Assembly: GCA_965230905.1 (NCBI GenBank)
Contig: OZ246396.1
Coordinates: forward strand, 360,001 to 392,000
Source: Candidatus Saccharimonadota bacterium
GTDB taxonomy: Bacteria; Patescibacteriota; Gracilibacteria; UBA1369; 2-02-FULL-48-14
Length of the DNA: 32,000 nucleotides
Direction of reading: 5' to 3'
Shown: positions 11,293 through 29,438 of the stretch, piece after piece
Numbering within the stretch: the stretch's first letter is position 1
How the letters are laid out: each line of letters begins with the position of its first letter
The notes under the pieces: generated by a model
The model's database searches: none
What the model saw: only the letters and a program-made list of their open reading frames with translations
Told to the model about the DNA's origin: nothing
Program-made: the position numbers and the translations under genes

Positions 11293-11383
11293 GGAGAGAT
11301 GGCTGAGCGGTCGAAAGCGGCGGTCTTGAAAACCGTTAGGGAGCCTGTCTTCCTCGGGGGTTCGAATCCCTCTCTCTCCGCCA
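11293..11383 (+). tRNA. tRNA-Ser (anticodon UGA), CCA encoded
   Basis: Acceptor GGAGAGA/TCTCTCC. Anticodon loop CTTGAAA (anticodon TGA). Long variable arm, T-loop GGTTCGAATCC, discriminator G, then CCA. Confidence 0.9.
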
Positions 11384-11552
11384 GAACGTGCATGATTTAA
11401 GCCTATGACCCACCTACCTGAGTAAAAGGTGAACTGGGAAGGTTTAATGATTTCCTCCTTCATAAGGCTTGAAAAGGCCGCCTATTACTAGACTCATGTT
11501 ATTGAGTGGCACGGGCGTTCATTAAAACCTGATATCTACGCTAAAGCCCTTT

Positions 11553-13180: not shown

Positions 13181-13209
13181 TTGAGAACCAACAGTTGTTG
13201 GTGTACTAT
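13181..13209 (+). promoter_or_regulatory. Promoter candidate for mod with a palindromic operator in the spacer
   Basis: TTGAGA (13181-13186), 17-nt spacer, TACTAT (13204-13209). The spacer contains the perfect inverted repeat ACCAACA-GT-TGTTGGT (13187-13202). Confidence 0.45.
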
Positions 13210-13237
13210 CGTTGGCAATCGCCTAGATAAAATAAGG

Positions 13238-15244: not shown

Positions 15245-17730
15245 AAATAGAATTAAAACCGTTTCAGGAAATTGCAGCTCAAAAGCTGTTGTCACATGTG
15301 AAGAAAGCTAGAAAAGGTGTGCTCGATAAAGATAATCAGGCAATTATCCTTAGTTCTCCCACAGGCTCTGGTAAGACAGTGATACTAACTCAGCTCATCG
15401 AGTGGATTTTGCAGGGCGACGAAGAAACAGAGGGAGACAAAGATGCTGTCTTCATTTGGCTTTCGGATATGCCAGAACTCAATCTTCAAAGTAGAGACAA
15501 AATTCTTCAACAATCTTCCGACCTTTCTGGAAGCATCTTGGAGGTTATCGAATCTCCCTTTAATCAAGACCGGCTGCTTCCTGGGAAAGTTTATTTCCTC
15601 AATACTCAGAAACTAGCAAAGGATGCCCTCCTTACTAAGGTCGGAGACGGCAGGGAGTACACCATATGGCAAACCATTGAAAATACAATTAAGGCATCCC
15701 CTGAGCATCTTTATGTGATTATCGATGAAGCTCACCGTGGTATGGCGGATGGAAAAGAAAATGCCAAGGCTTCAAGTATTGTGCAGCGATTTATTGTTGG
15801 TTACCCAGAAGGTGGCATGCAACCGATACCTCTTATCATTGGTATGAGTGCTACACCTGATCGATTTCAAAAACTGATTGAGAAGACAGACCGTACCCAA
15901 CGTCCATGCATCATCGAACCTGAGGACGTTAAAGCTTCTGGTCTACTTAAAGACCGCATTATTCTTTGGCATCCTACAGAGAAAGAATCGTCTGACTTCA
16001 CGCTGCTTGCTGAAGCGACAAGACGTTGGAATACGTGTATTGAGGAATGGAAGAAATACTCCAAATCACAAAAGAGGGATGACCCAGTAGAGCCAATACT
16101 CGTAGTGCAAGTAGAGGATGGAACTGAGAAAAAGCTTTCGAGTACAGATATTGAAACGATTATTAGAACGGTTGAAAATGTAACGGGTAAACTTGATGAC
16201 AATGCCTGGGCACATGCTTTTCAAGATGAAAAACCACTTGAAATTGCCGGCAGAGTCATTCGGAAAATTGATGCCTCTAAAATTGAGGCAGACCCATTAG
16301 TGAAAGTTGTTCTTTTTAAAATGAGTCTTTCAACGGGATGGGATTGTCCACGTGCCGAAGTATTAATGTCTTTTCGCAAGGCTAAGGATGCCACTTTTAT
16401 CGCCCAGCTGGTAGGACGTATGGTTCGCACTCCTCTTGCACGTAGAGTTGAGCATAACGAACTGCTCAATAGTGTTTCTCTTTATCTTCCAAACTATGAT
16501 GAAGGGAATTTAAAAACAGTTGTGCAAAAGCTTAATTCGCAAGATCCTGAGCAGGGAATTGCTATTGAGGTAGTCGATGGTTCTAAACTCGTGCAGCTCG
16601 TACGAGATTCTGAAAAGGAACAGTCGTTTAAAAAACTTGAGACTCTGCCCACTTACCGTATTGAGCGCATTGCAAAAAGTCCAAGTGTGAGAAGACTGCT
16701 TAAGTTTGCTCGTGCATTAACAAACGATGAGATCGACAAGAAGTCATGGGATTCTTCTAAGGAGTTTGTTCTCGATTTGCTCAATAAGGAGCTGACGAAG
16801 TTAAAAAAGAAAAAATCCTTTATGGATATCATTGAGAGTAAAGGTAAAATTGAAGTTCGTGAATCCTGGCTAGAGTATGGGGAGCAGTCCCTTTCAACTT
16901 CAAATAACTACATTTCGATTGAATCTTCACCCGAGAATATAGATGACCTCTTTGAGCAGTGTGGGCGTAAACTTGGCGAAGGACTTCACATGGAGTTTTG
17001 GCGTTCAAGACAAAATAAACAAGATCCAATTGTTACAAAGCTAGAAATAATTGCCCTTTTGCAAGAAGCTGGAATCGAGGATCTCATTGAACAGCAGTGT
17101 AGTGAAGAGCTAGAGCATTTTTGGAAGACCCATGCACAAGATATTCGTGCACTACCAAGTGGCAGGGAAGAGGAATATCGCATTATCATGAGAAGGTCTA
17201 AAGAGCCTTTTGCAGAGACTCTTCAAATGCCCATAGAAATGGAGGGTGTGAAGGAAGATGCAAGCTGGGAGAAGCACATTTATATTTCCGAGAAAGGTAA
17301 GTTCACTGCGGATTTGAATAACTGGGAGTCTAGAGTGGTGCACGAAATGATCGAGGAAGATTCATCGGTTATAGGCTGGTTACGTATTCTACCTAGAAAG
17401 GACTGGGCACTTTGCATCCCTTATCGGATGGAGAATGTTGATAAGCCTCTTTATCCGGACATCATCGCGTTCCGTAAAGAAAAAGGGCAAATAGTGGCTG
17501 ATATCTTTGATCCACACGCCAGTAGTCTTACGGACGCTGTCGACAAGGCAAAAGGACTCGCGGAATATGCAAAGAAGCACGGTGAGCATTTTGGAAGAAT
17601 TCTACTTATGATTATTAATGAGAAGGATCGTCTTTGTTGTCTCGATTTAAACAAGGAAAGTGTGCGGAACGAAGTGAATAAAGTAACTAGCCAAGCACAC
17701 TTGGAGAAACTTTTTGCAGATGCTCTTTGA
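15241..17730 (+). CDS. Type III-like restriction/helicase subunit (Res; SF2 DEAH ATPase)
   Basis: Motif I SSPTGSGKT. Motif II VIIDEAHRG. Motif III GMSATP. LSTGWDCPR. Motif VI QLVGRMVRTP. The C-terminal region has YPDII...IVADIFDPH. A clear PD-(D/E)xK lysine is not evident to me. Confidence 0.8.
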   Translation: MKIELKPFQEIAAQKLLSHVKKARKGVLDKDNQAIILSSPTGSGKTVILTQLIEWILQGDEETEGDKDAVFIWLSDMPELNLQSRDKILQQSSDLSGSILEVIESPFNQDRLLPGKVYFLNTQKLAKDALLTKVGDGREYTIWQTIENTIKASPEHLYVIIDEAHRGMADGKENAKASSIVQRFIVGYPEGGMQPIPLIIGMSATPDRFQKLIEKTDRTQRPCIIEPEDVKASGLLKDRIILWHPTEKESSDFTLLAEATRRWNTCIEEWKKYSKSQKRDDPVEPILVVQVEDGTEKKLSSTDIETIIRTVENVTGKLDDNAWAHAFQDEKPLEIAGRVIRKIDASKIEADPLVKVVLFKMSLSTGWDCPRAEVLMSFRKAKDATFIAQLVGRMVRTPLARRVEHNELLNSVSLYLPNYDEGNLKTVVQKLNSQDPEQGIAIEVVDGSKLVQLVRDSEKEQSFKKLETLPTYRIERIAKSPSVRRLLKFARALTNDEIDKKSWDSSKEFVLDLLNKELTKLKKKKSFMDIIESKGKIEVRESWLEYGEQSLSTSNNYISIESSPENIDDLFEQCGRKLGEGLHMEFWRSRQNKQDPIVTKLEIIALLQEAGIEDLIEQQCSEELEHFWKTHAQDIRALPSGREEEYRIIMRRSKEPFAETLQMPIEMEGVKEDASWEKHIYISEKGKFTADLNNWESRVVHEMIEEDSSVIGWLRILPRKDWALCIPYRMENVDKPLYPDIIAFRKEKGQIVADIFDPHASSLTDAVDKAKGLAEYAKKHGEHFGRILLMIINEKDRLCCLDLNKESVRNEVNKVTSQAHLEKLFADAL

Positions 17731-17732
17731 AA

Positions 17733-18668
17733 TTATATAATGGACATTCGACTCAGTGTTTCCCATAAAAACTTCTTATTTTCCTTTGCGTTACAATGTT
17801 TAGCGATGAGTCCCCAGTAGCTGGAGAGGTTCTGAGAGTTTAAGCGAGTGATTGCTCGATTTATTGCCCTATCGTTGAGGGTCCTTCCACTTGGATACAT
17901 ACGCACACCGAGAAAATGAAGACCCTGTTTTGCTTTGAGTAGTTGATCGTTTGTAGGATGGAGAGTCAGTTTCAGTTTTTCCTTCAAAAAATGTTCTACC
18001 TGCTCTCTTTTTTGTTTTAATAAAAGTGGGTCACTATCGAAAACCAGGAAGTCATCGCCATAACGTAAATAAGCACTAGATTTAAGATGAGTAGTCACAA
18101 AACGATCTAATTCGTTCAAATAAATGTTGGCAAATATTTGGCTCGTCAGATTGCCAATAGGAATTCCAGCCGGATAGCTAAAGATGACTTCTTGAAGGAG
18201 TAAAAGTGTGGCCGGATCCGTCACTCTCCGCTTTAAAAGAGTAAGCAAAACATCCTGATCTACATGGTCAAAGAACTTCCGGATGTCGGCACGCCAAACG
18301 TAGTGATTTGGAAAGGACTTTAGAAAATCTTGTGTGCGTTCGATCGCACCTAAAAGACCCTTTGTTTTCCTGCAAGACCAAGCATCAAAAATGAACGTAT
18401 GATCAAAAATTGGTACAAGGTAATCATACAAAATCCGGTGAACAATGCGATCCCTGATAGCCGCCACTGAGATCTCTCTGCGCTTATTTTCCGCTACGAT
18501 AAAGGTTCGGTAGGAACCATGCTTGTATGTTCCCTTAGCCAAGTCTTCAAAAAGGGCCTGCAAGTTTCCTTCTAAGCTATACTCAAACTCCTCTAACTGT
18601 GGACCCGCATTTTTACCTTTTCGGTAGTTCCACCAACTTTTCCAAATATTCTCTAATTTTATATCCAT
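17733..18668 (-). CDS. Diversity-generating retroelement reverse transcriptase
   Basis: The ORF opens at TTG 18692. ATG 18668 gives MDIKLENIWKSWWNYRKGK, a typical DGR RT N-terminus. The DGR-specific motif IGNLTSQ is at 18138-18158. Catalytic RYGDD is at 18051-18065. Confidence 0.9.
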   Translation of the reverse strand: MDIKLENIWKSWWNYRKGKNAGPQLEEFEYSLEGNLQALFEDLAKGTYKHGSYRTFIVAENKRREISVAAIRDRIVHRILYDYLVPIFDHTFIFDAWSCRKTKGLLGAIERTQDFLKSFPNHYVWRADIRKFFDHVDQDVLLTLLKRRVTDPATLLLLQEVIFSYPAGIPIGNLTSQIFANIYLNELDRFVTTHLKSSAYLRYGDDFLVFDSDPLLLKQKREQVEHFLKEKLKLTLHPTNDQLLKAKQGLHFLGVRMYPSGRTLNDRAINRAITRLNSQNLSSYWGLIAKHCNAKENKKFLWETLSRMSII

Positions 18669-19011
18669 GGAAGCACTTCCAATTATAAACAAAAGTTACA
18701 GCCTTTATAAGGATCTTGTAAGTGCACAGGACCTTTTAAGCAAGCGTCATCGTTATTCACTAGGAGTAAGTTCTGAGACTAGCATCCTTTCTCTCTTAGA
18801 AGAACTCACGATGGCAAAAAATGCTCCAAAGCCTTTAAAAGGCCCTTATCTCATCAAGGCAAGTGCCAGTTTAGAAGTGCTCATACTAAAACTTCGACTT
18901 CTACTAGAACTGAAACTAATCAACGAAACAAAGGTTTTCCAACTCCAAGCCAAAGCCTCCGAGATCGGAAGGATGCTTGGAGGTTGGCTTAAAAGTGTCC
19001 AAAGTACTTAA
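18667..19011 (+). CDS. avd: DGR accessory variability determinant (Avd; four-helix-bundle / 23S rRNA IVS-like protein)
   Basis: 114 aa. LPIINKSYSLYKDLV...KRHRYSLG...LEVLILKLRLLLELKLI...ASEIGRMLGGWLKS matches the Avd pattern (compare BPP-1 Avd ...AEVGRILGSWIARV). It is on the opposite strand to RT, TR and the targets. Confidence 0.85.
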   Translation: MEALPIINKSYSLYKDLVSAQDLLSKRHRYSLGVSSETSILSLLEELTMAKNAPKPLKGPYLIKASASLEVLILKLRLLLELKLINETKVFQLQAKASEIGRMLGGWLKSVQST

Positions 19012-19116
19012 CCATCATCGAGGCACGCAACCGGGCATTATCGTTTGGATTATCTAGATTATCGTTGTTGAACTTTGCCTTATCATCATTCCAGTTTCCA
19101 TAGGCGACGTTACCGT
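19008..19116 (-). repeat. DGR template repeat (TR)
   Basis: About 109 nt, homologous to VR1 and VR2. Sense (minus) strand: GGTAACGTCGCCTATGGAAACTGGAATGATGATAAGGCAAAGTTCAACAACGATAATCTAGATAATCCAAACGATAATGCCCGGTTGCGTGCCTCGATGATGG. It is rich in AAC/AAT/GAT codons. Nearly all TR/VR differences fall on TR adenines. Confidence 0.9.
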
Positions 19117-19152
19117 GAGTTGACCGCACCTATCCGATAGATCTTCACAGCC

Positions 19153-19360: not shown

Positions 19361-19387
19361 AAAAAAGAAAAAGCCCGCTTCGCGGGG
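19361..19387 (-). terminator. Rho-independent terminator after DGR target 1
   Basis: Minus strand reads CCCGC-GAA-GCGGG followed by CTTTTTCTTTTTT. It lies about 30 nt after the stop at 19416. Confidence 0.7.
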
Positions 19388-19415
19388 AAGGATAAGAAAA
19401 AATAAATTTCAAATG

Positions 19416-20375
19416 TTAAGCTTCAACTTCACCCATCACCGAGGCACGCAACCGGGCACCAGCGCTTGGATTACCTAGACCATCGCGGTCGAACCCCGCC
19501 CTAGCACCAGCCCCGTACCCAAAGGCGACGCTGCCGTCTCGAACGTGGGCAGCTTTAGGTTCACCAGCAAGTAAAGTGAACTGAGAACTACTAGCGTTAA
19601 TCATATCTGTTGGCTTGCCTACCCTGAGGTTCCTCATCATGAGCATCATATAAGCATGGGCATTCATACTTTGAATACCTTTACTGGCATAGTTCGCTTC
19701 AAAGTCTGCTATACGCTTATCATTCCTCATACTTTGTTGTTTATTCCATGGTTCTGACGCATCAGTACCATTAAAGTTTTGAGCACCTTCCACAATTGCG
19801 AACCGGTATTTTGTAATTTCTTGGTCTCTACGCACGCCGAAGTGCTGCGCAGCCTGCATGACTGTATCTTTAAAGAAGTCACCCACATAGGCATCCTGTT
19901 GGCCAGTTATGGCCCCTTTATTCTTGCACTCGGGTTTATTAATTGCAGTTTGGAGTCGCTCTATATTTGTGTCTGGAACAATTAACAATACTGACTCTCG
20001 TAGCTTTCTAAGTTCAGCTATTTGCTCAGGCTTAAGCTGCTTTAAGATGGATGCTTTAATTTTTTCTTTGCTTGGTGCTCTTTCACCCTTTCGTGGGTCT
20101 AAAACGAGTGAGAGAGTGGTAGAAGCCTCACCATACTCACGGTCCACAATATCTTTAATCCATTCTTCATCGTTTTTCTCTAGATTTCTTGTTTTACCAG
20201 ACAAAACTGCCTCAATATCACTACGCAAAGTGTCTATTTCCTGAACTAAACTGCCTTTATCTGGCGAGGCTTTTATCCTTGGGATTGCGGCGTCCACAGC
20301 GGCTTTTACCTTCTCATTTGAGAGGTATAATTCGCTTCTGCGTAGTTCGCTTATGAAAGTATCTGTATCGTTCAT
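19416..20375 (-). CDS. DGR variable protein 1 (319 aa; C-terminal variable module only)
   Basis: The C-terminal ~215 aa are homologous to the C-terminus of the next gene (LLIVP...INKPECK...DAY...YRF.I..G...WN...). The last ~35 aa are encoded by VR1: GSVAFGYGAGARAGFDRDGLGNPSAGARLRASVMGEVEA. Confidence 0.85.
   Translation of the reverse strand: MNDTDTFISELRRSELYLSNEKVKAAVDAAIPRIKASPDKGSLVQEIDTLRSDIEAVLSGKTRNLEKNDEEWIKDIVDREYGEASTTLSLVLDPRKGERAPSKEKIKASILKQLKPEQIAELRKLRESVLLIVPDTNIERLQTAINKPECKNKGAITGQQDAYVGDFFKDTVMQAAQHFGVRRDQEITKYRFAIVEGAQNFNGTDASEPWNKQQSMRNDKRIADFEANYASKGIQSMNAHAYMMLMMRNLRVGKPTDMINASSSQFTLLAGEPKAAHVRDGSVAFGYGAGARAGFDRDGLGNPSAGARLRASVMGEVEA
19429..19537 (-). repeat. DGR variable repeat VR1
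   Basis: Offset +421 from the TR. My manual alignment gives 22 substitutions at TR-adenine positions and 2 at non-adenine positions. The 3' IMH-like end GCCCGGTTGCGTGCCTCGGTGATGGGTGAA differs from TR ...CTCGATGATGGTTAAG. Confidence 0.9.
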
Positions 20376-20413
20376 TTTAAATTAAAGAAAAAAAGAAAAG
20401 CAAATTTTAAATG

Positions 20414-22981
20414 CTAAGTTTTAATTTCACCCATCACCGAGGCACGCAACCGGGCACTATCGAGTGGAAAATCCAGATTAGCGTTGTGGAACCCGGCCCT
20501 AGCACCAGCCCAGTCGCCACAGGCGACGCTACCGTTTCTTTGAACCTGTTCCAGCAATGTTATTGTATTTTTGTCTATAGGGGCACCGCTCTTCATGGCT
20601 CGCATTTGTAATAGAGCATAAGATTGGTCATCTAAGCCCATCATAGATTTTGGTCTAAAGTTGGCATTAAAGGCGTTGATACGCTCTTGATTAGTCGGTG
20701 TTTTGGTTCCAATTTTTGCCTGATTCCACTCACCGTGATCAGTAATGTCTTCAACTCCATCTGTAATTACGAATCTATACCCTAAGATTTTGCCATCGTC
20801 TAAAGCTTTTCCCTTGGGGGCAGTTAAACCTGCTTTTGCCTGTGTGCACTGCAAGTTAAAAGTCTCCTTTGTGAACTCTGAAAAGTAAGCATCGTTTGCG
20901 CTGCTAGGAGTTTTACATTCCGGCCTATTGATCGCTTTTTCATAACGGTCAAGTTTGGCAGGATACGGAACAATGAGCAGGGTTGGCTTTTTGAATTTTA
21001 CAACTTCTTCCCATTGTTCTTTCTTTACAACCTTTAATGCCTGCTTTATCTGTTCAGGTGTTGGCGCAGGCGCATCCCCGGTACCAATTTCAAATAATCT
21101 TGCTATATCTAGGGCTTCTTGAATCTGCTGTTCCATTTGTTTTTCTATTTCTTTGGGTTTTTCACGTCCCCTTCCACTAGGGTTCAGTAGTCCCAATAAT
21201 CTTTCCTGAGCTTCTCCTAGAGCCTCGTCTTCATCATCCATATCAATATCAGCCTTGGGTTTAACCCCAAACAACCTACCTACTTCCGAAGGCAGAATTA
21301 CTTCTCGGCTTTCTTCGCCCCAAAGAGCTTTATCCAATGGAGGGGCTATCACTCCGCTTCCACCAGCATCTAGGACTCCACAAACATTCAGAATCACACC
21401 TGCTAATTGTTTTTCCTGCTTATCCATATCAAACTTAGGATCTCTCAAAAAACGATCTAGTTTTTCTGCTAGGAACTGCCTAAAGGTTCTGCCTTTTGCT
21501 TTTTCCAGATCCCATCCTTCAAACATTCGAGTCAGTGTTCCAGTATCTAAGAAGCTTTTGTCCAAATGAACTTCATCCATACGTCCACCAAAGACCTGTG
21601 CAATCACTTCTTTATTGGCAGAAGCATTCAAGCCATCAATCTCACGATCGTGGCACATCTGCATGAGTTCTGCCGCCTTTGTCACCCGACGGATCAACTC
21701 TACGTCTTGAGGGCTCAGCGGTAGAAAGCCTGTGTCATCCATCATTTCTGCTAAAACTACTTTAAATAGCTCATCAGAAGGCATGTAGCCCACTTTAACT
21801 CCGGAGAGCATACGCAAAATAGCAGGATCCATGTCTTCACGAGCTTTAGTCCTATCATCTTTAAGGTTACCTGTAAAAATTTCTCCAAAGCCCTCTTTTA
21901 CTTCAAACACATCTCCGTTAAAACCGGGGAGATGAAGTTTTTGACCTACCCTCGCATTTAATTGGGCTTTAGCTGAAAGTTGTGCGCGAGTTGATCCCGT
22001 AGTGTACTCATCATGAATTACAATCTTTCCGTTGGTAATCGCAAGCGAAACTGGGCCAGGCTTGGTTCGACTTTTCATTCCTCCTTCCGCTTGATCAATT
22101 TCACGGTAACCAAATAAGTCTCTAGGAGTAGTGCCTTCATGCCACGAGACAATCTCATACCCCTCATCGTTAACTAAGTCTGCAACTAAGGTAGCTAGTT
22201 GAGTCTTACCAGTTCCAGTTGAGCCTATAAGAAATATCTTTTCTCCATGAGCTACTCCAGATAGGACACGACTTAAAAGTGTCCTTCGTGACTCCGTAGT
22301 AGCAAACCCTTTTTCTTGAAGTTCTTTCTTGTATCCAAGTAACTCTTGAACGTACAACCAACTCTTTGTGTCGGAGTCCGCAGTAGCTGTTGCTTGAGCT
22401 ATTTCAGTTTCTGCCCTCTCTCGTTTAGACTCAAGCGCTCCAATAGTCTTTTTTGTGGTTTCCTGAACCTTCCCACGTTCTCTTTTGTCTTTGAGGTACA
22501 TTGTTGTGACTTTCCGTGGGATAACTGCTCTTAAACGACTCAGTCTTGCTACTTTCTTTAGAGTTGGTCTAGCTGCTTTGAATTTTTGTGACTCTGTTTT
22601 CAGAACTCTAAAAAATTCTCTTTTAACATCTGGCACAGCAAGTAGTAGACGAATTTCTCCGCGGATTGTTTCTTTAGCATCGTCGGCATCCCGACTTTTT
22701 CCATCAGATTTTTCTAATTTTGCTAGCAATTGATCCAAATCTTCTTCCTCAGCCCAATCAAGATGTTCCTTTGCTTCTGGATTCCCCTCAGAAAAGTATT
22801 CTTCGATCAGACCTAAAAGACTTAGTGCCTTGCCCTGCACATCTTCGGACACTTTGCTGACTTCCCCTTCATCTCTATCTGTTATTTCCATTTCTTCCTT
22901 AAATCGTCCTTCGTCCGGTTGCATTAGACGACGCAGATAACGATTCATCCCATTTCCATCTTTTTGTGGCTCTTCTGACAT
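20414..22981 (-). CDS. DGR variable protein 2: MoxR-like AAA+ ATPase fused to the C-terminal variable module (855 aa)
   Basis: Walker A KIFLIGSTGTGKTQ (nt 22202-22225). Walker B KIVIHDEY. Acidic/coiled N-terminal ~240 aa. The C-terminal ~215 aa are paralogous to variable protein 1 and end in the VR2-encoded GSVACGDWAGARAGFHNANLDFPLDSARLRASVMGEIKT. Confidence 0.85.
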   Translation of the reverse strand: MSEEPQKDGNGMNRYLRRLMQPDEGRFKEEMEITDRDEGEVSKVSEDVQGKALSLLGLIEEYFSEGNPEAKEHLDWAEEEDLDQLLAKLEKSDGKSRDADDAKETIRGEIRLLLAVPDVKREFFRVLKTESQKFKAARPTLKKVARLSRLRAVIPRKVTTMYLKDKRERGKVQETTKKTIGALESKRERAETEIAQATATADSDTKSWLYVQELLGYKKELQEKGFATTESRRTLLSRVLSGVAHGEKIFLIGSTGTGKTQLATLVADLVNDEGYEIVSWHEGTTPRDLFGYREIDQAEGGMKSRTKPGPVSLAITNGKIVIHDEYTTGSTRAQLSAKAQLNARVGQKLHLPGFNGDVFEVKEGFGEIFTGNLKDDRTKAREDMDPAILRMLSGVKVGYMPSDELFKVVLAEMMDDTGFLPLSPQDVELIRRVTKAAELMQMCHDREIDGLNASANKEVIAQVFGGRMDEVHLDKSFLDTGTLTRMFEGWDLEKAKGRTFRQFLAEKLDRFLRDPKFDMDKQEKQLAGVILNVCGVLDAGGSGVIAPPLDKALWGEESREVILPSEVGRLFGVKPKADIDMDDEDEALGEAQERLLGLLNPSGRGREKPKEIEKQMEQQIQEALDIARLFEIGTGDAPAPTPEQIKQALKVVKKEQWEEVVKFKKPTLLIVPYPAKLDRYEKAINRPECKTPSSANDAYFSEFTKETFNLQCTQAKAGLTAPKGKALDDGKILGYRFVITDGVEDITDHGEWNQAKIGTKTPTNQERINAFNANFRPKSMMGLDDQSYALLQMRAMKSGAPIDKNTITLLEQVQRNGSVACGDWAGARAGFHNANLDFPLDSARLRASVMGEIKT
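20427..20535 (-). repeat. DGR variable repeat VR2
   Basis: Offset +1419 from the TR. My manual alignment gives 20 substitutions, all at TR-adenine positions. Its IMH-like 3' end is the same as in VR1. Confidence 0.9.
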
Positions 22982-23015
22982 TTGATTATTTAAATCTGTT
23001 AATTATAGCATTCTT

Positions 23016-25607
23016 TTATAACCTTTTCAAGGAGTTGCTGAGCATCCTATGCCTTGTCAGTACTGCTTCTTTCACATCGCTTAGTACCACTCCTGCGTCA
23101 GGAGTTCCAGGGTCATGACAAATCACACGAATATCTTGGGCACTTTCTCCAAAACCTATCCCTTGGACAACAATACCTCTGGCCCTGAGCCTTGTAATAA
23201 TATTCACGGCTTCGGGTTTATCACCCACTCCTCCATCTGAAACAATGGTAAGTACCTTAACGCATTTCCCATTTTTTATTTTTTGGTCTGTTTTGCCGTC
23301 TAGGGCCGCTTCATAGGCCTTCAGTGCTCCAACTAAATTTCCTCCTCCGCTCTGCGTTTTGTTGAGTTCGTCATATAGGAATGCTAGTGCCTTCTCATCA
23401 ATCTTTTGCTCGGGATTTTGTAAAACTGATACTAAGGTATCTCCTTTGAAGGAAAGTACGTGACTTCGCAAATTGATTGGATCTTTCATCCTTTTACGAT
23501 ATTTATCTAAATCGAGTCGCTTGTTTAGCATCATAAGGTTGTAGAGTCCTGAAAGGATCATCTTTTTTTGTTCTTCGGCAGGCGTTCCACTCATGGAACC
23601 TGTAAGATCCAAAATTGCATCATCTTCAAATTCAGTTACATAAATCTCTTCGCGAGTCTTAACTGCATGAATTTTATACCCTAGGGGATCTGGTTCTCCC
23701 GCAAGTAGGTCAATTGCAGCATCAACCGGATCATCCAGTTCGTCACCTTCGCTTTGACGCACGGGTCCTCGGTAAGCCTCGACGGAGATTTCGCGTCTTT
23801 TATAAATTATTTCAAATAAACTATCCCACTCTTCTTTCAGTGTGCTTGTGCGATTTTTGATGCTAGATACTGCTGGAACAGGCGTGTTGTTGACCCCACT
23901 AATGAAAGCTTCTACAGCTTTCCATTTCGCAAGAGACACTCCTGTTTGCTGTTCAAATAGTTTTGCCGGATTAGGATCTTCCTCCTTCCCTTTGGCCTGT
24001 TCCAGCATTTCTTCAAAAAGAGTTCGAACTTCTTCTAAGGAAAGTTCTTCTTGCTCTTCAGGTGGTGCAGCCTCCCCAAAATCTCCATCTTGCGGCTCGC
24101 CATTTTCCTCTTCATCATCATCATCTTCCTTTTCTTTTGCTGGAGTCGCATCAGTACGAATCCACTCCTCGCCATTCCACACTTCCCCCCAGGCGTGACC
24201 AATGCCTGCAATAGCCGCAAAGTCAAAACGCGGATCTTTTGAGATGTAATGCCCTGCAATTACTCTGTGATGAATGCCAAGATGGGCAAGCATTTGACCG
24301 TGAAAAATATTGCTCCAGTAACAATCAGCAATTCCATTGGTAGTCATCACTTGCAATAAATTATCTCCAGAGTTCAAGTAGGCTTCGTTCATCTGTGCTC
24401 TTGCCCCCTCGTCTTTTGGATATTTAAATCGTTTCCTTACGTAGGCTGCACAGCGTTTGGCCTTTTCAATATCTGAAAGGGTATGATCTTGTTCAAGGTT
24501 TTTTAAAAAACCTTCTGCTTCGTTATCAAAATTGCCTAAAACTTTCTCTATTTCTTCGGGTTCATCGTTTAGTTTAATAGCTTCATTTTGGGCTAAAATA
24601 AACTTAAACGTGACTGGTGTTTTTGCAGTTACTTTTGGTGAACCCTGCTTGGCGGCTAAATAAAAGCTTCCCGTATCACTTCTTACAATTTGGAGATTTT
24701 TAGGTTCTAGTGTGTGTGGAAGTGGAACAGCAGCATAGGGAAGTTCCAAAAGATTATCTTTGTCTGGATTGAAGACAGTTTCATAAGTGTATTCTTTAGC
24801 TTCTTCCAAATCATCTGGTGCAAAAGTGTGCGCTTGCCCAGGTTTCTGTACGATTTGTTTTTGATTGGAATCGTATGCACAAACATTTCCTCGGTAGTAG
24901 CCACCAAAAAAGGGACTGACTTTCGTTTCGATATCGTTTGGATCAATTGGTTCTTGTTCCCCAGCTCCGACCTGAGGCTTATATTCAAATTTCTTCGTTT
25001 CTTGCTTTTCTTCTTCCTTTAGCGCTAGGTGCGCCCGTTCTAAATGCCCGTAAAGTTTTAGATTAACCTCTGGAGTATATTCTTCGGAAATGAGCTCATC
25101 CAAGGCGTGAAGTTTTCGTCTGCTTTTTGGAACGGCACGGAAAGCTTTAGCCACTTCAGGGCTTAAACCTTCTGGTAACTTACCTCGAATCACGTATTGT
25201 TCACATGCGTACAAGAATTGATCGGCCAAGCCCAAGTCACCGGGATTGACTTGAGTAGGTGGAAGCTCTCGCTTAAGGTGTTTTAGACCTTGAAGCTTAA
25301 GAATATTTTTGTATCCTTTTTGATCTTGTAAAACCCGAAAGGCTGCTTGAGCGTCTTGTTGGATGAATCGTCTAGTTTGGGTCAATTCCGCTACTCTAAG
25401 TGTGGCAGCCCTTATGGCTTGATTTCGGTCACTGAATTTTTGTCGATTGACCTCAACTTTAAAGACTTCTCCATCTTTGCTGACATGGACTTTTGGTCCA
25501 GTATCTACAAGCACGATTTGATTACCCGCAAGAGTCATTTCTATCAGCTGAAGATCAGCCTCTGATAGGTCTTTTGTTTCGTCTAGTTGGTCGTCTTTTT
25601 CTGCCAT
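23016..25607 (-). CDS. Transglutaminase-like cysteine protease domain + von Willebrand factor A domain fusion protein (863 aa)
   Basis: TGase core at about nt 24138-24470: GIADCYWSNIFHGQMLAHLGIHHRVIAGHY...GIGHAWGEVWNGEEWIRTDATP (Cys-His-Asp). Acidic linker KEKEDDDDEEENGEPQDGD. C-terminal vWA at about nt 23058-23630 with a MIDAS-like DLTGSMSG and later TIVSDGG. Confidence 0.8.
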   Translation of the reverse strand: MAEKDDQLDETKDLSEADLQLIEMTLAGNQIVLVDTGPKVHVSKDGEVFKVEVNRQKFSDRNQAIRAATLRVAELTQTRRFIQQDAQAAFRVLQDQKGYKNILKLQGLKHLKRELPPTQVNPGDLGLADQFLYACEQYVIRGKLPEGLSPEVAKAFRAVPKSRRKLHALDELISEEYTPEVNLKLYGHLERAHLALKEEEKQETKKFEYKPQVGAGEQEPIDPNDIETKVSPFFGGYYRGNVCAYDSNQKQIVQKPGQAHTFAPDDLEEAKEYTYETVFNPDKDNLLELPYAAVPLPHTLEPKNLQIVRSDTGSFYLAAKQGSPKVTAKTPVTFKFILAQNEAIKLNDEPEEIEKVLGNFDNEAEGFLKNLEQDHTLSDIEKAKRCAAYVRKRFKYPKDEGARAQMNEAYLNSGDNLLQVMTTNGIADCYWSNIFHGQMLAHLGIHHRVIAGHYISKDPRFDFAAIAGIGHAWGEVWNGEEWIRTDATPAKEKEDDDDEEENGEPQDGDFGEAAPPEEQEELSLEEVRTLFEEMLEQAKGKEEDPNPAKLFEQQTGVSLAKWKAVEAFISGVNNTPVPAVSSIKNRTSTLKEEWDSLFEIIYKRREISVEAYRGPVRQSEGDELDDPVDAAIDLLAGEPDPLGYKIHAVKTREEIYVTEFEDDAILDLTGSMSGTPAEEQKKMILSGLYNLMMLNKRLDLDKYRKRMKDPINLRSHVLSFKGDTLVSVLQNPEQKIDEKALAFLYDELNKTQSGGGNLVGALKAYEAALDGKTDQKIKNGKCVKVLTIVSDGGVGDKPEAVNIITRLRARGIVVQGIGFGESAQDIRVICHDPGTPDAGVVLSDVKEAVLTRHRMLSNSLKRL

Positions 25608-25875: not shown

Positions 25876-27471
25876 ATGACACAGATCTCCAAAAATCTTA
25901 AGAAAGGCATCCTAGCCGTTCTTTTGACCGTTCTTCTTATCCCTACTGCTTCAGCCTCCACTTTTGGAGACGTTGCATCCAGCAACACCAACTATGTTGC
26001 GATTGAGTACCTCGTTAGCATTGGTACTCTTGAAGGTTACTCAGATGGCACCTTCAAACCCAACCAAACCATCAATCGGGCGGAGCTCATGAAAATCCTT
26101 GTTGCCGGACAAGGCATTGATCCCGATGAAAATACTTATAAAAACTGTTTCCCGGACGTCACTACAGATTGGTACGCTAAATATGTTTGCTATGCCCATG
26201 AAGAAGGGTGGGTGGACGGTTATCCTGATGGAACATTTCAACCCGCAACCACTGTTAACAAAGTGGAAGAAGTAAAAATGCTCGTGAATGCTTTGGGCCT
26301 CGATTCAATGCTTCCAAGCTCTGTCAGCACGACTTTGTTTACCGACACGGACAGTTCAGCTTGGTATGCTCCATACCTCTATGTTGCAAAAGATTTGAAT
26401 TTGCTTGAAATCAGCAGTGGGAATTTCCTCCCCTCGGGGGACATGGATAGAAGCGGCGTTGCAGAAAATATTTATCGAACCCTAGTTGTGCAGGAGACTG
26501 ATGTGAGTGCGTTTAGTGACGAAGCACAAACGAACTTTCTCACGCAAAAGGATCTTACTTCACTGATCAGCTCGGATGATTCCAATGACACGGAAACTAC
26601 AGATTTCTCTGATGAAACTGAGAGTAACGACCAAACTGTTTCAATTGATGACATTGAACTCTCCGGTTCAGGTGCAGAAGTTTCTGACCCTTTCCAACTT
26701 GAAGAAGGTTTATCCGTAGTCACTTTAACTCACTCGGGAGACAGTAACTTTATAGTCAGGGTTCTTTCTACTTCGGATGACAGCACAGAATATCTCGTGA
26801 ACGAAATTGGCGACTACGATGGTGTTACTGCCTTTGGAGTTGATGAGGCTGGAGAGTACGTTTTAGACATTGATGCGGATGGGCCTTGGACTGCTACCAT
26901 TGAGCAGCCTCGAGATACTTCCAACGCTCAGTACACCAAAAGTTTCTCGGGAGAAGGCATGATGGTCACAGATTTTATAAAAGTTGAGGAGGGACTTGCT
27001 GTCTTCAACTTTACGCATGATGGTGATTCGAATTTTATAGTACATCTCTTGGATGAGGGTGGAGATGTCGTTGGCTATCTTGCCAACCAAATTGGTGAAT
27101 ATGAAGGGTCTATCGCGGAATATGTAGATGAGGGGACGTATGTGGTTCGCATCGATGCGGATGGTGAATGGACGATGGACTTTGACCAAGTAGATTTTAG
27201 TGACAGTAGTTCTGATACCAGCTTCAGCGGTGAAGGTAGTGCTGCTACCCAAGTCTTTCACGTTGAGACAGGAGGTTTGAAGACTTTTGACCTCAGTCAC
27301 TCGGGCGATAGTAACTTCATTGTTCACCTTCTTGATTCTGATGGCCGAACGGTGGCTTACCTGGCAAATGCCATTGGAGACTACAGCGGCTCTACTGCCG
27401 AGTATTTGGATGCAGGCGACTATATTATGAACGTTCAAGCGGACGGAGAGTGGGACATTTCCATTGACTAA
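25876..27471 (+). CDS. Secreted SLH-domain surface protein with three tandem copies of an unknown ~85-aa domain
   Basis: Signal peptide ...LLIPTASA/S. Three SLH repeats (FGDVASSNTNYVAIEYLVSIGTLEGYSDGTFKP; FPDVTTDWYAKYVCYAHEEGWVDGYPDGTFQP; FTDTDSSAWYAPYLYVAKDLNLL). Ser/Asp/Thr-rich linker, then the three repeats. Confidence 0.85.
   Translation: MTQISKNLKKGILAVLLTVLLIPTASASTFGDVASSNTNYVAIEYLVSIGTLEGYSDGTFKPNQTINRAELMKILVAGQGIDPDENTYKNCFPDVTTDWYAKYVCYAHEEGWVDGYPDGTFQPATTVNKVEEVKMLVNALGLDSMLPSSVSTTLFTDTDSSAWYAPYLYVAKDLNLLEISSGNFLPSGDMDRSGVAENIYRTLVVQETDVSAFSDEAQTNFLTQKDLTSLISSDDSNDTETTDFSDETESNDQTVSIDDIELSGSGAEVSDPFQLEEGLSVVTLTHSGDSNFIVRVLSTSDDSTEYLVNEIGDYDGVTAFGVDEAGEYVLDIDADGPWTATIEQPRDTSNAQYTKSFSGEGMMVTDFIKVEEGLAVFNFTHDGDSNFIVHLLDEGGDVVGYLANQIGEYEGSIAEYVDEGTYVVRIDADGEWTMDFDQVDFSDSSSDTSFSGEGSAATQVFHVETGGLKTFDLSHSGDSNFIVHLLDSDGRTVAYLANAIGDYSGSTAEYLDAGDYIMNVQADGEWDISID
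26660..27468 (+). repeat. Three tandem coding repeats (approx 26660-26907, 26944-27192, 27223-27468)
   Basis: Protein-level repeat consensus FSGEG....F.VE.GL..F.LTHSGDSNFIVHLLD..G..V.YLAN.IG.Y.GS.AEY.D.G.Y...I.ADGEW. Confidence 0.8.
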
Positions 27472-29074: not shown

Positions 29075-29435
29075 GGATTTGTACTTCCTCCTCGGAAGTG
29101 AGTTTGTCTAAGTTTTCTAGCCGCCCAGTGACTTCGACCTTGGTTTTGTAGTCTGGGTGGTTATTTTTTAGCCAGAATATGATTCCGGTCATGTTTCCGT
29201 CCCGGACGGCTTTCATGAGCTGGGACTCAGCTATGTCGTTCACGATTTTCTTTCCTGAATAAAGTGCTCCGTCGGATTCTTCAGTGAACTTTTCATCCTC
29301 CTTGCGCCAGCGGTAGTAGGTTGCTCTTCCAATGCCAGTTTTTTCACAGGCGACTTGAACAATTGGAGTTTTACGAAGATTCTCCAGAAGTATTTCTTTG
29401 TTCTTTTCGGTTTTTTGCGCTGTTAAGTCATCCAT
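29010..29435 (-). CDS. terS: Terminase small subunit-like HTH protein
   Basis: 141 aa. HTH GIGRATYYRWRKEDEKF, followed by LMKAVRDGNMTGIIFWLKNNHPD, typical of small terminase / phage DNA-binding proteins. It lies directly upstream of terL. Confidence 0.65.
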   Translation of the reverse strand: MDDLTAQKTEKNKEILLENLRKTPIVQVACEKTGIGRATYYRWRKEDEKFTEESDGALYSGKKIVNDIAESQLMKAVRDGNMTGIIFWLKNNHPDYKTKVEVTGRLENLDKLTSEEEVQIHEALVHAGLLPTNPQNDGTNL

Positions 29436-29438
29436 AGC

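What the first reader, a model, noticed from the sequence alone, without database searches (positions are those of the whole stretch)
19416..25607. DGR-diversified receptor module fused to a MoxR-like AAA+ ATPase, partnered with a transglutaminase-vWA protein
**What the sequence shows.** Three co-oriented genes with short gaps (34 and 38 nt) and no terminator between them form one apparent operon.
- An 863-aa protein carries a transglutaminase-like Cys-His-Asp core (ADCYW...GHAWGEVW...RTDATP) and a C-terminal vWA domain (MIDAS-like DLTGSMSG).
- An 855-aa protein carries a MoxR/AAA_5-like ATPase (GSTGTGKT, VIHDEY). Its last ~215 aa form a module that ends in VR2.
- A 319-aa protein consists essentially of the same ~215-aa module and ends in VR1.

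**Established knowledge.** MoxR-type AAA+ ATPases characteristically work with vWA-domain partners. MoxR, a vWA-like protein and a transglutaminase-like protein recur together as a gene neighbourhood in bacteria. DGR variable regions normally sit at the ligand-binding face of C-type-lectin-like folds.

**Inference.** The ATPase of a MoxR/vWA/TGase machine has itself acquired a hypervariable ligand-binding C-terminus, and a free-standing copy of that module is encoded next to it. This suggests a programmable recognition system: variable sensor, then ATPase, then vWA/transglutaminase (protease or cross-linker) output. That would fit a conflict, surface-remodelling or host-attachment role better than a phage tail fibre.

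I do not recognise the 215-aa module (LLIVP..INxPECK..DAY..YRFxI..G...WN...) as a named family.
Basis: partly seen in the sequence, partly recalled or inferred. Interest (0 to 1): 0.9.

Follow-up and report, generated by a model that had tools for sequence, protein, structure and literature searches.

The report
Retroelement-diversified MoxR ATPase with protease partner
A candidate-phyla (Patescibacteria) bacterium carries a working mutagenic retroelement that rewrites the binding tip of a MoxR-type motor ATPase (and of a small stand-alone copy of that tip), and this ATPase is always encoded next to a transglutaminase-like protease fused to a vWA docking domain; the ATPase fusion was already known as the commonest such target in these bacteria, but the fixed protease-vWA partner gives it a testable mechanism.

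Summary
Three co-oriented minus-strand genes (gaps 34 and 38 nt) encode a transglutaminase-core + vWA protein (863 aa), an AAA_5 ATPase with a C-terminal variable module (855 aa), and a 319-aa stand-alone copy of that module.

Just downstream lies a complete DGR of the CPR-typical TR-(avd)-RT layout. One 105-nt template carries 35 adenines. VR1 and VR2 differ from it at 23 and 21 adenine positions and at only 2 and 0 other positions.

A near-identical strain has 0 changes over ATPase residues 81-760 but about 18 in the variable region, so diversification is recent.

The ATPase model matches NorQ and CbbQ, MoxR ATPases that work through vWA partners (Foldseek E about 1e-11). Catalytic and MIDAS residues are invariant.

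The TGase-vWA gene sits directly upstream of the ATPase gene in all 13 distinct close-family loci with upstream DNA. It stays in the cassette down to 23% identity.

AAA-CLec DGR targets in CPR are already published. The conserved TGase-vWA partnership appeared in no paper I could search. The sensor-motor-protease function is inferred. Verdict: real, a new variant of a known kind, moderately interesting.

The parts
23016..25607 (-). Gene for the 863-aa transglutaminase-like (Cys-His-Asp) plus acidic linker plus C-terminal vWA/MIDAS protein. There is no signal peptide or TM segment.
   Evidence: ORF. Pfam Transglut_core 7.6e-8 and VWA 0.0038. 29 of 33 homologues match Transglut_core and 13 of 33 match VWA. 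A family profile hits solved TRAP vWA domains at 3e-5. The maximum 19-residue hydropathy is 0.91.
24141..24476 (-). Transglutaminase-like core (aa 378-489) with Cys429, His471 and Asp486.
   Evidence: Pfam match. The triad is invariant in 37 of 37 homologues.
23088..23630 (-). vWA domain (about aa 660-840) with MIDAS residues D667-x-T669-x-S671 and D791-G792.
20414..22981 (-). Gene for the 855-aa protein. It has an N-terminal long-helix region (aa 45-245), a MoxR-type AAA+ core and lid (aa 249-535), a disordered acidic linker (aa 578-607) and a C-terminal variable module (aa 640-855).
   Evidence: ORF. AAA_5 1.6e-13. AlphaFold model with pLDDT 79. Foldseek top hits are NorQ and CbbQ at E 1e-11 to 1e-8, TM 0.73-0.81 on the target.
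21377..22249 (-). AAA+ ATPase core and lid (aa 245-535): Walker A GSTGTGKT, Walker B VIHDE, sensor 1 TGN, and Arg381 and Arg390.
   Evidence: Conservation in 31 homologues. Structural match to NorQ and CbbQ.
20417..21064 (-). About 215-aa variable module fused to the ATPase (aa 640-855).
   Evidence: BLASTP against the small protein gives E 1e-33. AlphaFold model with pLDDT 88, pTM 0.87. Family of 591 clusters.
20431..20535 (-). VR2, the variable region at the 3' end of the ATPase gene (aa 816-851).
   Evidence: 21 mismatches to the TR at adenines and 0 elsewhere. About 18 residue differences from a strain that is identical over aa 81-760.
19416..20375 (-). Gene for the 319-aa stand-alone protein: an N-terminal region of about 100 aa followed by the same module.
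19433..19537 (-). VR1, the variable region at the 3' end of the small gene.
   Evidence: 23 adenine mismatches and 2 non-adenine mismatches to the TR. 17 of the 38 differences from an 88%-identical homologue fall in the last 39 residues.
19374..19386 (-). GC-rich hairpin followed by a T-run, about 30 nt after the stop codon of the VR1 gene. It is either the operon terminator or the DGR target-site hairpin, or both. VR2 has no equivalent.
19012..19116 (-). Template repeat (TR): 105 nt, 35 adenines, rich in AAC/AAT codons. It encodes GNVAYGNWNDDKAKFNNDNLDNPNDNARLRASMM.
18667..19011 (+). avd accessory gene, on the strand opposite to the TR, the RT and the targets (B3 layout, TR-(avd)-RT).
   Evidence: Pfam bAvd 3.7e-13. 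phrog_3206 7.7e-16. The same orientation recurs in related loci. The layout is defined in PMC5758913.
17733..18692 (-). DGR reverse transcriptase gene.
   Evidence: RVT_1 1.5e-15. phrog_1423 1.2e-83.

Best explanation
**What it is (shown).** This is a Patescibacteria-type diversity-generating retroelement in the TR-(avd)-RT layout. It uses one adenine-rich template to rewrite the last 35 or so codons of two paralogous C-terminal modules. One module is fused to a MoxR-family (CbbQ/NorQ-like, AAA_5) AAA+ ATPase. The other is on a 319-aa stand-alone protein. The ATPase gene is preceded, in an apparent operon, by a gene for a soluble protein that joins a catalytically intact transglutaminase-like Cys-His-Asp domain, through an acidic linker, to a vWA domain with an intact MIDAS site.

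**How it most likely works (inferred).**
1. All three proteins are cytoplasmic.
2. The ATPase forms a hexamer, as NorQ, CbbQ and RavA do.
3. The vWA domain of the partner docks on the ring, as NorD docks on NorQ through a finger in the central pore. This tethers the transglutaminase-like peptidase or cross-linker to the motor.
4. The ring displays up to six hypervariable modules. These bind a changing set of protein ligands, most plausibly components of phages or other invaders.
5. ATP-driven remodelling then exposes the bound ligand, or the vWA protein itself, to the transglutaminase-like domain for cleavage or modification.
6. The free-standing module, diversified from the same template, serves as a second receptor, an adaptor or a competitor.

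In effect this would be a MoxR-vWA-peptidase machine whose substrate specificity is re-drawn by a retroelement.
For: **Shown**
- The DGR is complete and A-specific.
- Diversification is recent: a second strain is identical over aa 81-760 but differs at about 18 residues in the VR.
- The same ATPase family ends in a VR with a cognate TR in 8 further independent loci, with 13-23 adenine mismatches and 0-1 other mismatches.
- AAA_5 is matched by 31 of 31 family members, and the ATPase motifs are conserved.
- The full-length model matches NorQ (including NorQ-NorD vWA complexes) and CbbQ at E 1e-11 to 1e-8, TM 0.73-0.81.
- The TGase triad and the MIDAS residues are invariant in 37 homologues. The vWA domain is supported at profile level.
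- TGase-vWA sits immediately upstream of the ATPase gene in every distinct close-family locus with upstream DNA: the window plus 12 distinct places, L001, L003, L004, L007-L012, L014, L015 and L022.
- In relatives at only 23-29% identity, TGase-vWA is still in the cassette but lies after the RT (L017, L018, L019).
- None of the three proteins has a hydrophobic segment above 1.6 or an N-terminal signal-like sequence.

**From the literature**
- MoxR ATPases act through vWA partners, and the NorD vWA finger enters the NorQ pore (PMC13036017).
- MoxR, vWA and transglutaminase-like peptidase genes form a common operon that has been proposed to be a degradation system (PMC3495828).
- DGR-diversified CLec/FGS domains are proposed sensors of MoxR-vWA conflict systems (PMC7159879, PMC10907252).
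Against: - No physical interaction, ATPase activity or peptidase activity was tested.
- No match to any PADLOC defence model was found.
- Some loci keep TGase-vWA, the ATPase and even the small gene without a detectable RT or TR (L001, L012, L015). The machine can therefore persist with a frozen receptor.
- CPR bacteria are episymbionts, so a role in host interaction cannot be excluded by sequence alone.
- Whether the transglutaminase-like domain cleaves, cross-links or only binds is unknown.
Confidence: 0.6

Rival explanations
1. Host-attachment or surface-remodelling system of an episymbiont. The variable modules are exported and bind structures on the host cell, and the transglutaminase-like domain cross-links or trims surface proteins.
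For: - The organism is a Patescibacteria MAG. DGR targets in CPR have been suggested to mediate host interaction (PMC10907252, discussing Paul et al. 2017).
- A secreted SLH-domain protein is encoded divergently, next to the operon.
- The weak structural hits of the module are to adhesive C-type-lectin domains.
Against: - None of the three proteins has a signal peptide or TM helix.
- The variable module is covalently fused to an ATP-dependent motor of a family that works in the cytoplasm.
- The SLH gene is not conserved next to the cassette in other loci.
Confidence: 0.12
2. Phage or mobile-element accessory module. The cassette belongs to a prophage and serves the phage, for example in tropism, superinfection exclusion or counter-defence, rather than the cell.
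For: - In this window the cassette lies in a lower-GC island. The island starts at tRNA-Ser (11293-11383) with a serine recombinase and contains terminase large and small subunits and DNA methyltransferases.
- One IMG/VR contig carries the same cassette.
Against: - In other genomes the cassette sits between housekeeping genes: trmD and the rpsI/rplM operon, or ftsZ and ftsA.
- Only 1 true relative was found among 2.9 million viral contigs, against 13 among species-representative genomes.
- No virion structural gene adjoins it, and the targets are not tail-fibre-like.
Confidence: 0.1
3. Programmable chaperone or regulatory tuner for the cell's own proteins. The MoxR-vWA pair matures or remodels endogenous complexes, as NorQD, CbbQO and RavA-ViaA do. 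The DGR varies which endogenous partner is engaged, and the transglutaminase-like domain acts as a binding or modifying module rather than a killing effector.
For: - The closest solved relatives are maturation factors and activases (NorQ, CbbQ), not defence proteins.
- No PADLOC match was found.
- Loci without a DGR keep the three genes (L001).
- DGRs have been proposed to tune regulatory pathways in cyanobacteria (PMC7517822, abstract seen).
Against: - About 1e17 possible receptor variants and strain-level turnover confined to the VR fit a moving target better than a fixed endogenous client.
- The cassette is patchily distributed and sits in variable genomic places, next to restriction-modification and toxin-antitoxin genes.
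Confidence: 0.18

Closest known systems
[quoted passage not shown] 2017, as summarised in PMC10907252; 'UVR4' and category g1 P-loop/midasin-like targets and the B3 TR-(avd)-RT layout in Wu et al. 2018, PMC5758913)
   Same: The host group, the midasin/AAA_5-type ATPase N-terminal to a C-terminal VR, the reversed avd between TR and RT, and multiple targets fed by one TR all match.
   Different: In the text I could read, those surveys left the fold of the VR domain undecided and did not mention a partner gene. Here the ATPase is placed structurally with NorQ and CbbQ, and a TGase-vWA gene is shown to accompany it throughout the family. I could not read Paul et al. 2017 itself.
[quoted passage not shown] 2020, PMC7159879; Dore et al. 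2024, PMC10907252)
   Same: A MoxR-type ATPase, a vWA protein and a peptidase effector are encoded together with a DGR that diversifies a C-terminal receptor domain. The components are predicted to be cytoplasmic, and the proposed logic is sensor, then ATPase, then effector.
   Different: In VMAP systems the variable domain is fused to the vWA protein and the peptidase (usually trypsin or caspase, rarely transglutaminase-like) is on a separate VMAP protein. Here the variable domain is on the ATPase and the peptidase-like domain is fused to vWA. No VMAP domain was detected. The host is CPR, which that study excluded, and Dore et al. state that most CPR RTs form a clade of their own (not tested here).
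MoxR-vWA-YebA (transglutaminase-like peptidase) three-gene operon (Zhang and Aravind 2012, PMC3495828)
   Same: The same three domain types are linked, and the system was proposed to be ATP-dependent, with vWA recruiting, MoxR unwinding and the transglutaminase-like domain cleaving.
   Different: The YebA-type protein is an eight-TM membrane protein. vWA is separate or fused to MoxR, and there is no variable receptor or retroelement. Here the TGase protein is soluble and fused to vWA.
NorQ-NorD, CbbQ-CbbO and RavA-ViaA MoxR/vWA pairs
   Same: These include the best structural matches of the ATPase core (NorQ and CbbQ). They depend on a vWA partner. RavA also carries a C-terminal ligand-binding (LARA) domain on the ATPase; this last point is from my own knowledge.
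   Different: Those systems have fixed clients (nitric oxide reductase, Rubisco, LdcI/Frd) and no peptidase domain. Their ATPases are about 260-500 aa, without the 245-aa helical N-terminus or a hypervariable module.
C-type-lectin-fold DGR variable proteins (Mtd, TvpA, AvpA, TaqVP)
   Same: The VR lies at the extreme C-terminus, the template is rich in AAY codons, and a two-helix plus beta-sheet subdomain carries the VR. The best, though weak, structural hit is a CLec-fold variant (Bd2740 tip, PMC10769870).
   Different: There is no significant sequence or Foldseek similarity to any of them, and the module has an extra N-terminal alpha/beta subdomain of about 130 aa.

Membership tests
Diversity-generating retroelement (DGR) | Reverse transcriptase of the DGR type next to the repeats | tested here: met
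   RVT_1 1.5e-15. phrog_1423 1.2e-83 over 274 aa.
Diversity-generating retroelement (DGR) | TR/VR pair whose differences fall almost only at template adenines | tested here: met
   VR1 has 23 A-site and 2 non-A mismatches; VR2 has 21 and 0. The TR has 35 A in 105 nt.
Diversity-generating retroelement (DGR) | VR at the 3' end of a target ORF, with an invariant 3' flank (IMH-like) | tested here: met
   Both VRs end 4-5 codons before the stop. The shared segment GCCCGGTTGCGTGCCTCG follows the variable part.
Diversity-generating retroelement (DGR) | Accessory protein Avd | tested here: met
   bAvd 3.7e-13, above the gathering score. It lies on the opposite strand, as in the B3 layout.
Diversity-generating retroelement (DGR) | Evidence of ongoing diversification | tested here: met
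   P0001 and P0080 show 0 differences over aa 81-760 and about 18 in aa 801-845. Read-level heterogeneity was not testable.
MoxR-family AAA+ ATPase (CbbQ/NorQ-like, Pfam AAA_5) | Intact Walker A, Walker B, sensor 1 and arginine finger | tested here: met
   GSTGTGKT, h-h-H-[D/E]-E325, T370-G-N372, R381 and R390 are invariant or nearly so in 31 sequences.
MoxR-family AAA+ ATPase (CbbQ/NorQ-like, Pfam AAA_5) | Closest structural relatives are MoxR ATPases | tested here: met
   The top 18 Foldseek PDB hits are NorQ and CbbQ at E 1.7e-11 to 3e-8 with TM 0.72-0.81 on the target. Dynein, McrB and Rea1 follow. By sequence profile there is only a weak midasin hit at 0.0024.
MoxR-family AAA+ ATPase (CbbQ/NorQ-like, Pfam AAA_5) | Adjacent gene for a vWA-domain partner | tested here: met
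MoxR-family AAA+ ATPase (CbbQ/NorQ-like, Pfam AAA_5) | Hexameric ring, ATP hydrolysis, and docking of the vWA domain on the ring | not testable with these tools
   This needs complex prediction or biochemistry.
VMAP ternary conflict system (Kaur et al. 2020) | A separate VMAP protein with VMAP domains | tested here: not met
   Pfam scans of the three proteins and of 64 family members returned no VMAP family. The bpMoxR model is matched weakly by 8 of 31 ATPases, best E 2.5e-5.
VMAP ternary conflict system (Kaur et al. 2020) | DGR-diversified FGS/CLec domain fused to the vWA component | tested here: not met
   The VR is on the ATPase and on a stand-alone protein. The vWA protein carries no VR.
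MoxR-vWA-YebA transglutaminase operon (Zhang and Aravind 2012) | Transglutaminase-like domain in a multi-pass membrane protein | tested here: not met
   The maximum 19-residue hydropathy of the 863-aa protein is 0.91, so there is no TM segment.
MoxR-vWA-YebA transglutaminase operon (Zhang and Aravind 2012) | Linked MoxR, vWA and transglutaminase-like Cys-His-Asp domains | tested here: met
C-type-lectin-fold DGR variable domain | CLec/FGE-type fold of the VR-bearing domain | tested here: inconclusive
C-type-lectin-fold DGR variable domain | Variable residues form one solvent-exposed surface | not testable with these tools
The VR maps to strands 818-825 and 828-835, the loop 836-846 and the start of strand 847-853.
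CPR AAA-fused DGR targets (Paul 2017; Wu 2018 UVR4/g1) | CPR host, P-loop/midasin-like ATPase upstream of a C-terminal VR, and TR-(avd)-RT layout | tested here: met
   Source names are Patescibacteria. AAA_5 and the midasin hit. Layout. Identity with the published UVR4 alignment could not be checked because the supplement is not held.

The most novel reading that the evidence does not exclude
Patescibacteria carry a phylum-wide, cytoplasmic, retroelement-programmable AAA+ machine. A MoxR hexamer has substrate-binding tips that a DGR redraws to about 1e17 possible variants. Through a vWA/MIDAS dock it is hard-wired to a transglutaminase-like peptidase or cross-linker. This would make it a re-targetable protein-capture-and-processing (immune-like) system that evolved separately from the VMAP ternary systems of multicellular bacteria. 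It also has interchangeable receptor domains on one conserved motor.
Probability: 0.35. Interest if true: 0.8.

Novelty: new variant of a known kind. Interest (0 to 1): 0.55.

Why it matters
DGR targets fused to AAA ATPases are said to be the commonest DGR architecture in the candidate phyla radiation, yet nobody knows what they do. Three results here turn an uncharacterised 'AAA-CLec target' into a concrete three-part hypothesis: a variable receptor on the motor, a vWA dock, and a peptidase or cross-linker.

- The ATPase is a NorQ/CbbQ-type MoxR enzyme.
- A catalytically intact transglutaminase-vWA protein is its constant neighbour.
- All parts lack export signals.

The hypothesis can be tested with complex prediction, pull-downs and activity assays in a heterologous host.

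It also gives a second, apparently separate case in which a DGR feeds a MoxR-vWA system. In this case the variable domain sits on a different subunit. That bears on whether such systems are a general solution for anticipatory recognition inside bacterial cells. If the model is right, the scaffold could be of interest as a naturally re-targetable protein-processing machine.

Tried and rejected
- **Sequence searches with the module.** The module found nothing in Pfam, PHROGs, NCBIfam or PADLOC. The same module as a profile found nothing in PDB.
- **Second C-terminal type.** A profile of the '...GFRxAVVLG' type found in other family members found nothing in PDB. It showed no significant hhalign similarity to the window's module (probability 0.5%). 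I therefore could not transfer its FGE/CLec-like motifs (R-[LM]-P-T-x-x-E, GFR) to this module.
- **ATPase by sequence alone.** A single-sequence PDB search gave only P-loop noise. A family profile gave a weak midasin hit. Only the structure search was decisive.
- **Word-indexed search.** With the 319-aa protein it returned only 3 proteins. The exhaustive profile search was needed to see the family.
- **Literature.** Paul et al. 2017 could not be read, and the supplements of Wu et al. 2018 are not held. Whether the TGase-vWA neighbour was noted there is unknown. Full-text searches for DGR plus transglutaminase found no CPR paper.
- **Rejected idea: the reversed avd is an ORF-calling artefact.** It scores above the Pfam gathering threshold, and the same orientation recurs in 10 distinct related loci that carry avd.
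- **Rejected idea: the variable proteins are tail fibres.** See the phage rival explanation.

Full report
**1. Observation**

The gaps are 34 and 38 nt. A consensus scan finds no terminator-like site in either gap. The first one on that strand is a GC hairpin with a T-run at 19374-19386, just after the last gene.

Pfam confirms Transglut_core in the 863-aa protein (7.6e-8, aa 378-487). It also gives a sub-threshold VWA match (0.0038, aa 666-833). AAA_5 is confirmed in the 855-aa protein (1.6e-13, aa 249-390). Nothing is found in the 319-aa protein. The C-terminal 215 residues of the ATPase align with residues 100-318 of the small protein at 37% identity, E 1e-33.

**2. The retroelement**

A 143-nt direct repeat has three copies, at 18977-19119, 19398-19540 and 20396-20538. 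In register, the copy next to the RT is the template: 19012-19116, 105 nt, with 35 adenines.

- VR1 (19433-19537) differs from it at 23 adenine positions and 2 other positions.
- VR2 (20431-20535) differs at 21 adenine positions and none other.

The template encodes GNVAYGNWNDDKAKFNNDNLDNPNDNARLRASMM. It has 23 adenine-containing codons, which allow about 2e17 protein variants.

The RT (17733-18692, minus strand; phrog_1423 1.2e-83) and Avd (18667-19011; bAvd 3.7e-13) are present. Avd lies on the plus strand, between the TR and the RT. This is the 'B3' TR-(avd)-RT layout, which Wu et al. found in 90% of their CPR DGRs and almost nowhere else (PMC5758913).

The element is, or very recently was, active. 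A second strain's ATPase (P0080) is identical over residues 81-760 but differs at about 18 residues within 801-845. In an 88%-identical small protein (P0040), 17 of the 38 differences fall in the last 39 residues.

**3. Origin and context**

The proteins are exact matches to a Patescibacteria MAG, on a 1.3-Mb contig.

In this window the cassette lies in a lower-GC stretch (about 0.41-0.46, against about 0.50-0.54 for 5-11 kb). The stretch begins at tRNA-Ser(tga), 11293-11383, next to a large serine recombinase. It also holds:

- a type III restriction-modification pair;
- terminase large and small subunits;
- two DNA methyltransferases.

So here the cassette rides on an integrated, phage-related island.

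Elsewhere the same cassette sits among housekeeping genes: between trmD and the rpsI/rplM operon in L001, and between ftsZ and ftsA in L004. Only one true relative was found in 2.9 million IMG/VR contigs. I therefore treat it as a cellular cassette that can be carried by mobile elements, not as a phage structural module.

**4. The ATPase**

The word-indexed search returned 38 relatives. All those that carry a source name are from Patescibacteria, and most are about 850-880 aa. All 31 full-length members match AAA_5, and 8 weakly match the bpMoxR model.

Conserved motifs:

- Walker A, GSTGTGKT;
- Walker B, VIH[D/E]E, with Glu325 invariant;
- sensor 1, T370-G-N372;
- Arg381 and Arg390.

Sequence searches of the PDB gave only a weak midasin hit (0.0024). 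This echoes the 'Midasin' note of Wu et al. for their CPR 'UVR4' targets.

The full-length AlphaFold model has mean pLDDT 79. It shows:

- long N-terminal helices (aa 45-245);
- an alpha/beta core (aa 249-415);
- a helical lid (aa 424-535);
- a disordered acidic linker (aa 578-607);
- the C-terminal module.

Foldseek against the PDB puts NorQ first, including chains from NorQ-NorD vWA complexes, followed by CbbQ. E-values run from 1.7e-11 to about 3e-8 and TM-scores from 0.72 to 0.81 on the target. Dynein, McrB, a MoxR of unknown function (2R44) and Rea1/midasin come after. NorQ and CbbQ are MoxR ATPases that act only together with vWA proteins. In NorQD a finger from the vWA domain enters the pore of the hexamer (PMC13036017). 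'MoxR-like' is therefore supported by structure, not only by the P-loop.

**5. The partner**

The 863-aa protein has 38 relatives of about 860-900 aa, several on the same contigs as ATPase relatives. In 37 aligned homologues the following are invariant:

- Cys429, His471 and Asp486 (the transglutaminase/papain-like triad);
- Asp667, Thr/Ser669 and Ser671 (the DxSxS of MIDAS);
- Asp791-Gly792.

29 of 33 members match Transglut_core and 13 of 33 match VWA. A family profile hits solved TRAP vWA domains at 3e-5. A D/E-rich stretch of about 60 residues separates the two domains.

None of the three proteins has a hydrophobic 19-residue window above 1.6 or a signal-like N-terminus. I infer that all three are cytoplasmic.

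**6. Linkage**

I built HMMs from the two families and scanned six-frame ORFs of the window and the related loci fetched up to that point. A later scan added L019, L021 and L022.

- **Close family.** The TGase-vWA gene lies immediately upstream of the ATPase gene in the window and in 12 further distinct places: L001, L003, L004, L007, L008, L009, L010, L011, L012, L014, L015 and L022. Duplicate places (L002, L005, L013) are not counted. That is every close-family locus with upstream DNA.
- **Avd and RT.** Avd and RT follow the ATPase gene in most of these. Avd is reversed, except in L014, where both Avd and RT are on the other strand.
- **Distant relatives (23-29% identity).** The order changes to ATPase-(avd)-RT-TGase-vWA, with avd not detected in L018, but the linkage persists (L017, L018, L019).
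- **No TGase gene seen.** Two distant ATPases (L016, L021) show no TGase gene, but their downstream DNA is cut short.
- **Cognate TRs.** A TR with 13-23 adenine mismatches and 0-1 other mismatches matches the 3' end of the ATPase gene in L003, L004, L008, L009, L010, L011, L014 and L017. In L008 it also matches a small second target, as in the window.
- **Loci without a working DGR.** L001 keeps TGase-vWA, the ATPase and the small gene, but has only a 68-aa RT remnant and no TR. L012 and L015 show no RT or TR.

The two-gene core is therefore older and more stable than its attachment to a working DGR.

**7. The variable module**

A 15-sequence alignment gave a confident model (pLDDT 88, pTM 0.87). 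It has an N-terminal alpha/beta part, then two helices and four to five beta-strands. The VR (aa 816-851) covers the last strands and the loop between them.

The module is not rare. A profile search of 1.84 billion representatives found 591 clusters at E <= 1e-3 (370 at <= 1e-10). Most are stand-alone proteins of about 300-340 aa with the module at the C-terminus. A minority are ATPase fusions of about 800-1000 aa.

Within the ATPase family the C-terminal domain is not constant. Many members end in '...YEWxEDEY...GFRxAVVLG', and hhalign cannot relate this type to the window's module. One conserved motor therefore carries at least two unrelated-looking receptor types, each diversified by a DGR.

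**8. Mechanism**

Shown:

- an active DGR writes into the tip of a MoxR ATPase and of a stand-alone paralogue;
- the ATPase always travels with a soluble transglutaminase-like protein fused to vWA, with intact active-site and MIDAS residues.

From established knowledge:

- MoxR hexamers work through vWA partners (NorQD, CbbQO, RavA-ViaA);
- a MoxR-vWA-transglutaminase-like operon is widespread and was proposed to be an ATP-dependent degradation system (PMC3495828);
- DGR-diversified CLec/FGS domains are proposed antigen sensors of MoxR-vWA conflict systems (PMC7159879, PMC10907252).

Inferred: the vWA domain docks the transglutaminase-like domain on the ring. The variable modules capture changing ligands, most plausibly foreign proteins. 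ATP-driven remodelling then couples capture to cleavage or modification. The small protein is an extra receptor, an adaptor or a competitor.

I give the anatomy about 0.9 and the functional chain about 0.4. The stated 0.6 is for the whole. The rivals are surface or host attachment, phage accessory function, and a programmable chaperone for endogenous clients. Each is listed with its evidence.

**9. Comparison and novelty**

[quoted passage not shown] 2017. They suggest the ATPase may transduce signals from the C-terminal region. Wu et al. recorded midasin-like and P-loop N-termini in CPR targets but left the VR fold undecided. The headline fusion is therefore known.

The locus is not a VMAP ternary system: no VMAP domain was found, the VR is on the ATPase rather than on vWA, and the peptidase is fused to vWA. 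It is not the YebA-type operon either, because the TGase protein has no membrane segment.

In the literature I could search, three points seem not to be described:

- the constant TGase-vWA partner;
- the structural placement of the ATPase with NorQ and CbbQ;
- the exchange of receptor types on one motor.

I could not read Paul et al. 2017.

I rate the finding a new variant of a known kind, interest 0.55. It is real, coherent and mechanistically suggestive. However, the central fusion is published and the function is untested.

Noticed in passing
window 18667-19116: avd is on the strand opposite to the TR, the RT and the targets. Its stop codon abuts the TR (19011/19012). Its start overlaps the longest RT ORF by 26 nt: the RT TTG start is at 18692, and an in-frame ATG at 18668 would place the two start codons back to back. 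So TR-RT transcription must run antisense through avd, and no obvious room is left for divergent promoters. The orientation is conserved in related loci.
   Followed up: partly
window 11293-12881 and 27521-31455: tRNA-Ser(tga) lies directly next to a large serine recombinase. GC drops from about 0.50-0.54 to about 0.41-0.46 from there onward. Terminase small and large subunits, a DNA methyltransferase and a ParB-methyltransferase lie at 27.5-31.5 kb. The DGR cassette in this genome therefore sits in an integrated phage-related island, whose far end is beyond the window.
   Followed up: partly
window 13181-17730: A type III restriction-modification pair (mod 687 aa, res 829 aa; PADLOC MTase_III 2.4e-120) lies directly beside the RT gene and converges on it.
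   Followed up: partly
window 25876-27471 (+): A divergently transcribed 531-aa protein has a signal-like N-terminus and SLH domains. Three repeats of about 100 aa each follow, each with the motif H-x-GDSNFIV-x-LL. Function unknown, and the gene is not conserved next to the cassette elsewhere.
   Followed up: no
window 23002-23030 (-): A strong sigma-70-like match (TTGAAA, 17 nt, TATAAT, with TG extension; 11 of 12) straddles the end of the TGase-vWA gene and the 34-nt gap. It could be an internal promoter for the ATPase and small genes. Overall, promoter-like sites are fewer than in shuffled sequence.
   Followed up: no
window 18934-19011 (-) and 19374-19386 (-): The 78 nt after the TR fold into an extended stem-loop (DNA parameters, -12.5 kcal/mol, z = -2.4). 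VR1 is followed by a short GC hairpin, while VR2 has none, yet VR2 is diversified between strains.
   Followed up: partly
L001 7399-13841 (and its duplicate L002): This cassette has TGase-vWA, the ATPase and the small target, but only a 68-aa RT fragment and no detectable TR or avd. It is wedged next to the ribosomal protein S9/L13 operon and looks like a decayed DGR with retained, now frozen, targets.
   Followed up: partly
L004 5768-16741: The whole cassette is inserted between ftsZ and ftsA, next to HepT/MNT and HicAB toxin-antitoxin pairs.
   Followed up: no
L019 1-8403: A distant version of the cassette has two tandem AAA_5 genes (about 890-905 aa) separated by a small Fic-domain gene. 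These are followed by a 127-aa ORF, a reversed avd, the RT and an 800-aa TGase-like gene.
   Followed up: no
ATPase family C-termini (P0013-P0036): Many family members carry a different C-terminal variable domain. One type ends '...R-[LM]-P-T-x-x-E-L/W...YEW...GFRxAVVLG', and a third type ends '...LGVVxSR'. hhalign cannot relate these to the window's module, which suggests receptor-domain swapping on a conserved ATPase.
   Followed up: partly
P0112 (995 aa, from the representatives search): This ATPase-module fusion carries an extra C-terminal DUF4256 domain (5e-28) after the module, so in that protein the module is not at the C-terminus.
   Followed up: no
L011 and L016 record titles: Two loci with the cassette come from MAGs labelled 'uncultured Gammaproteobacteria', while all others are Patescibacteria. 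This is either a binning or labelling error, or transfer outside CPR.
   Followed up: no
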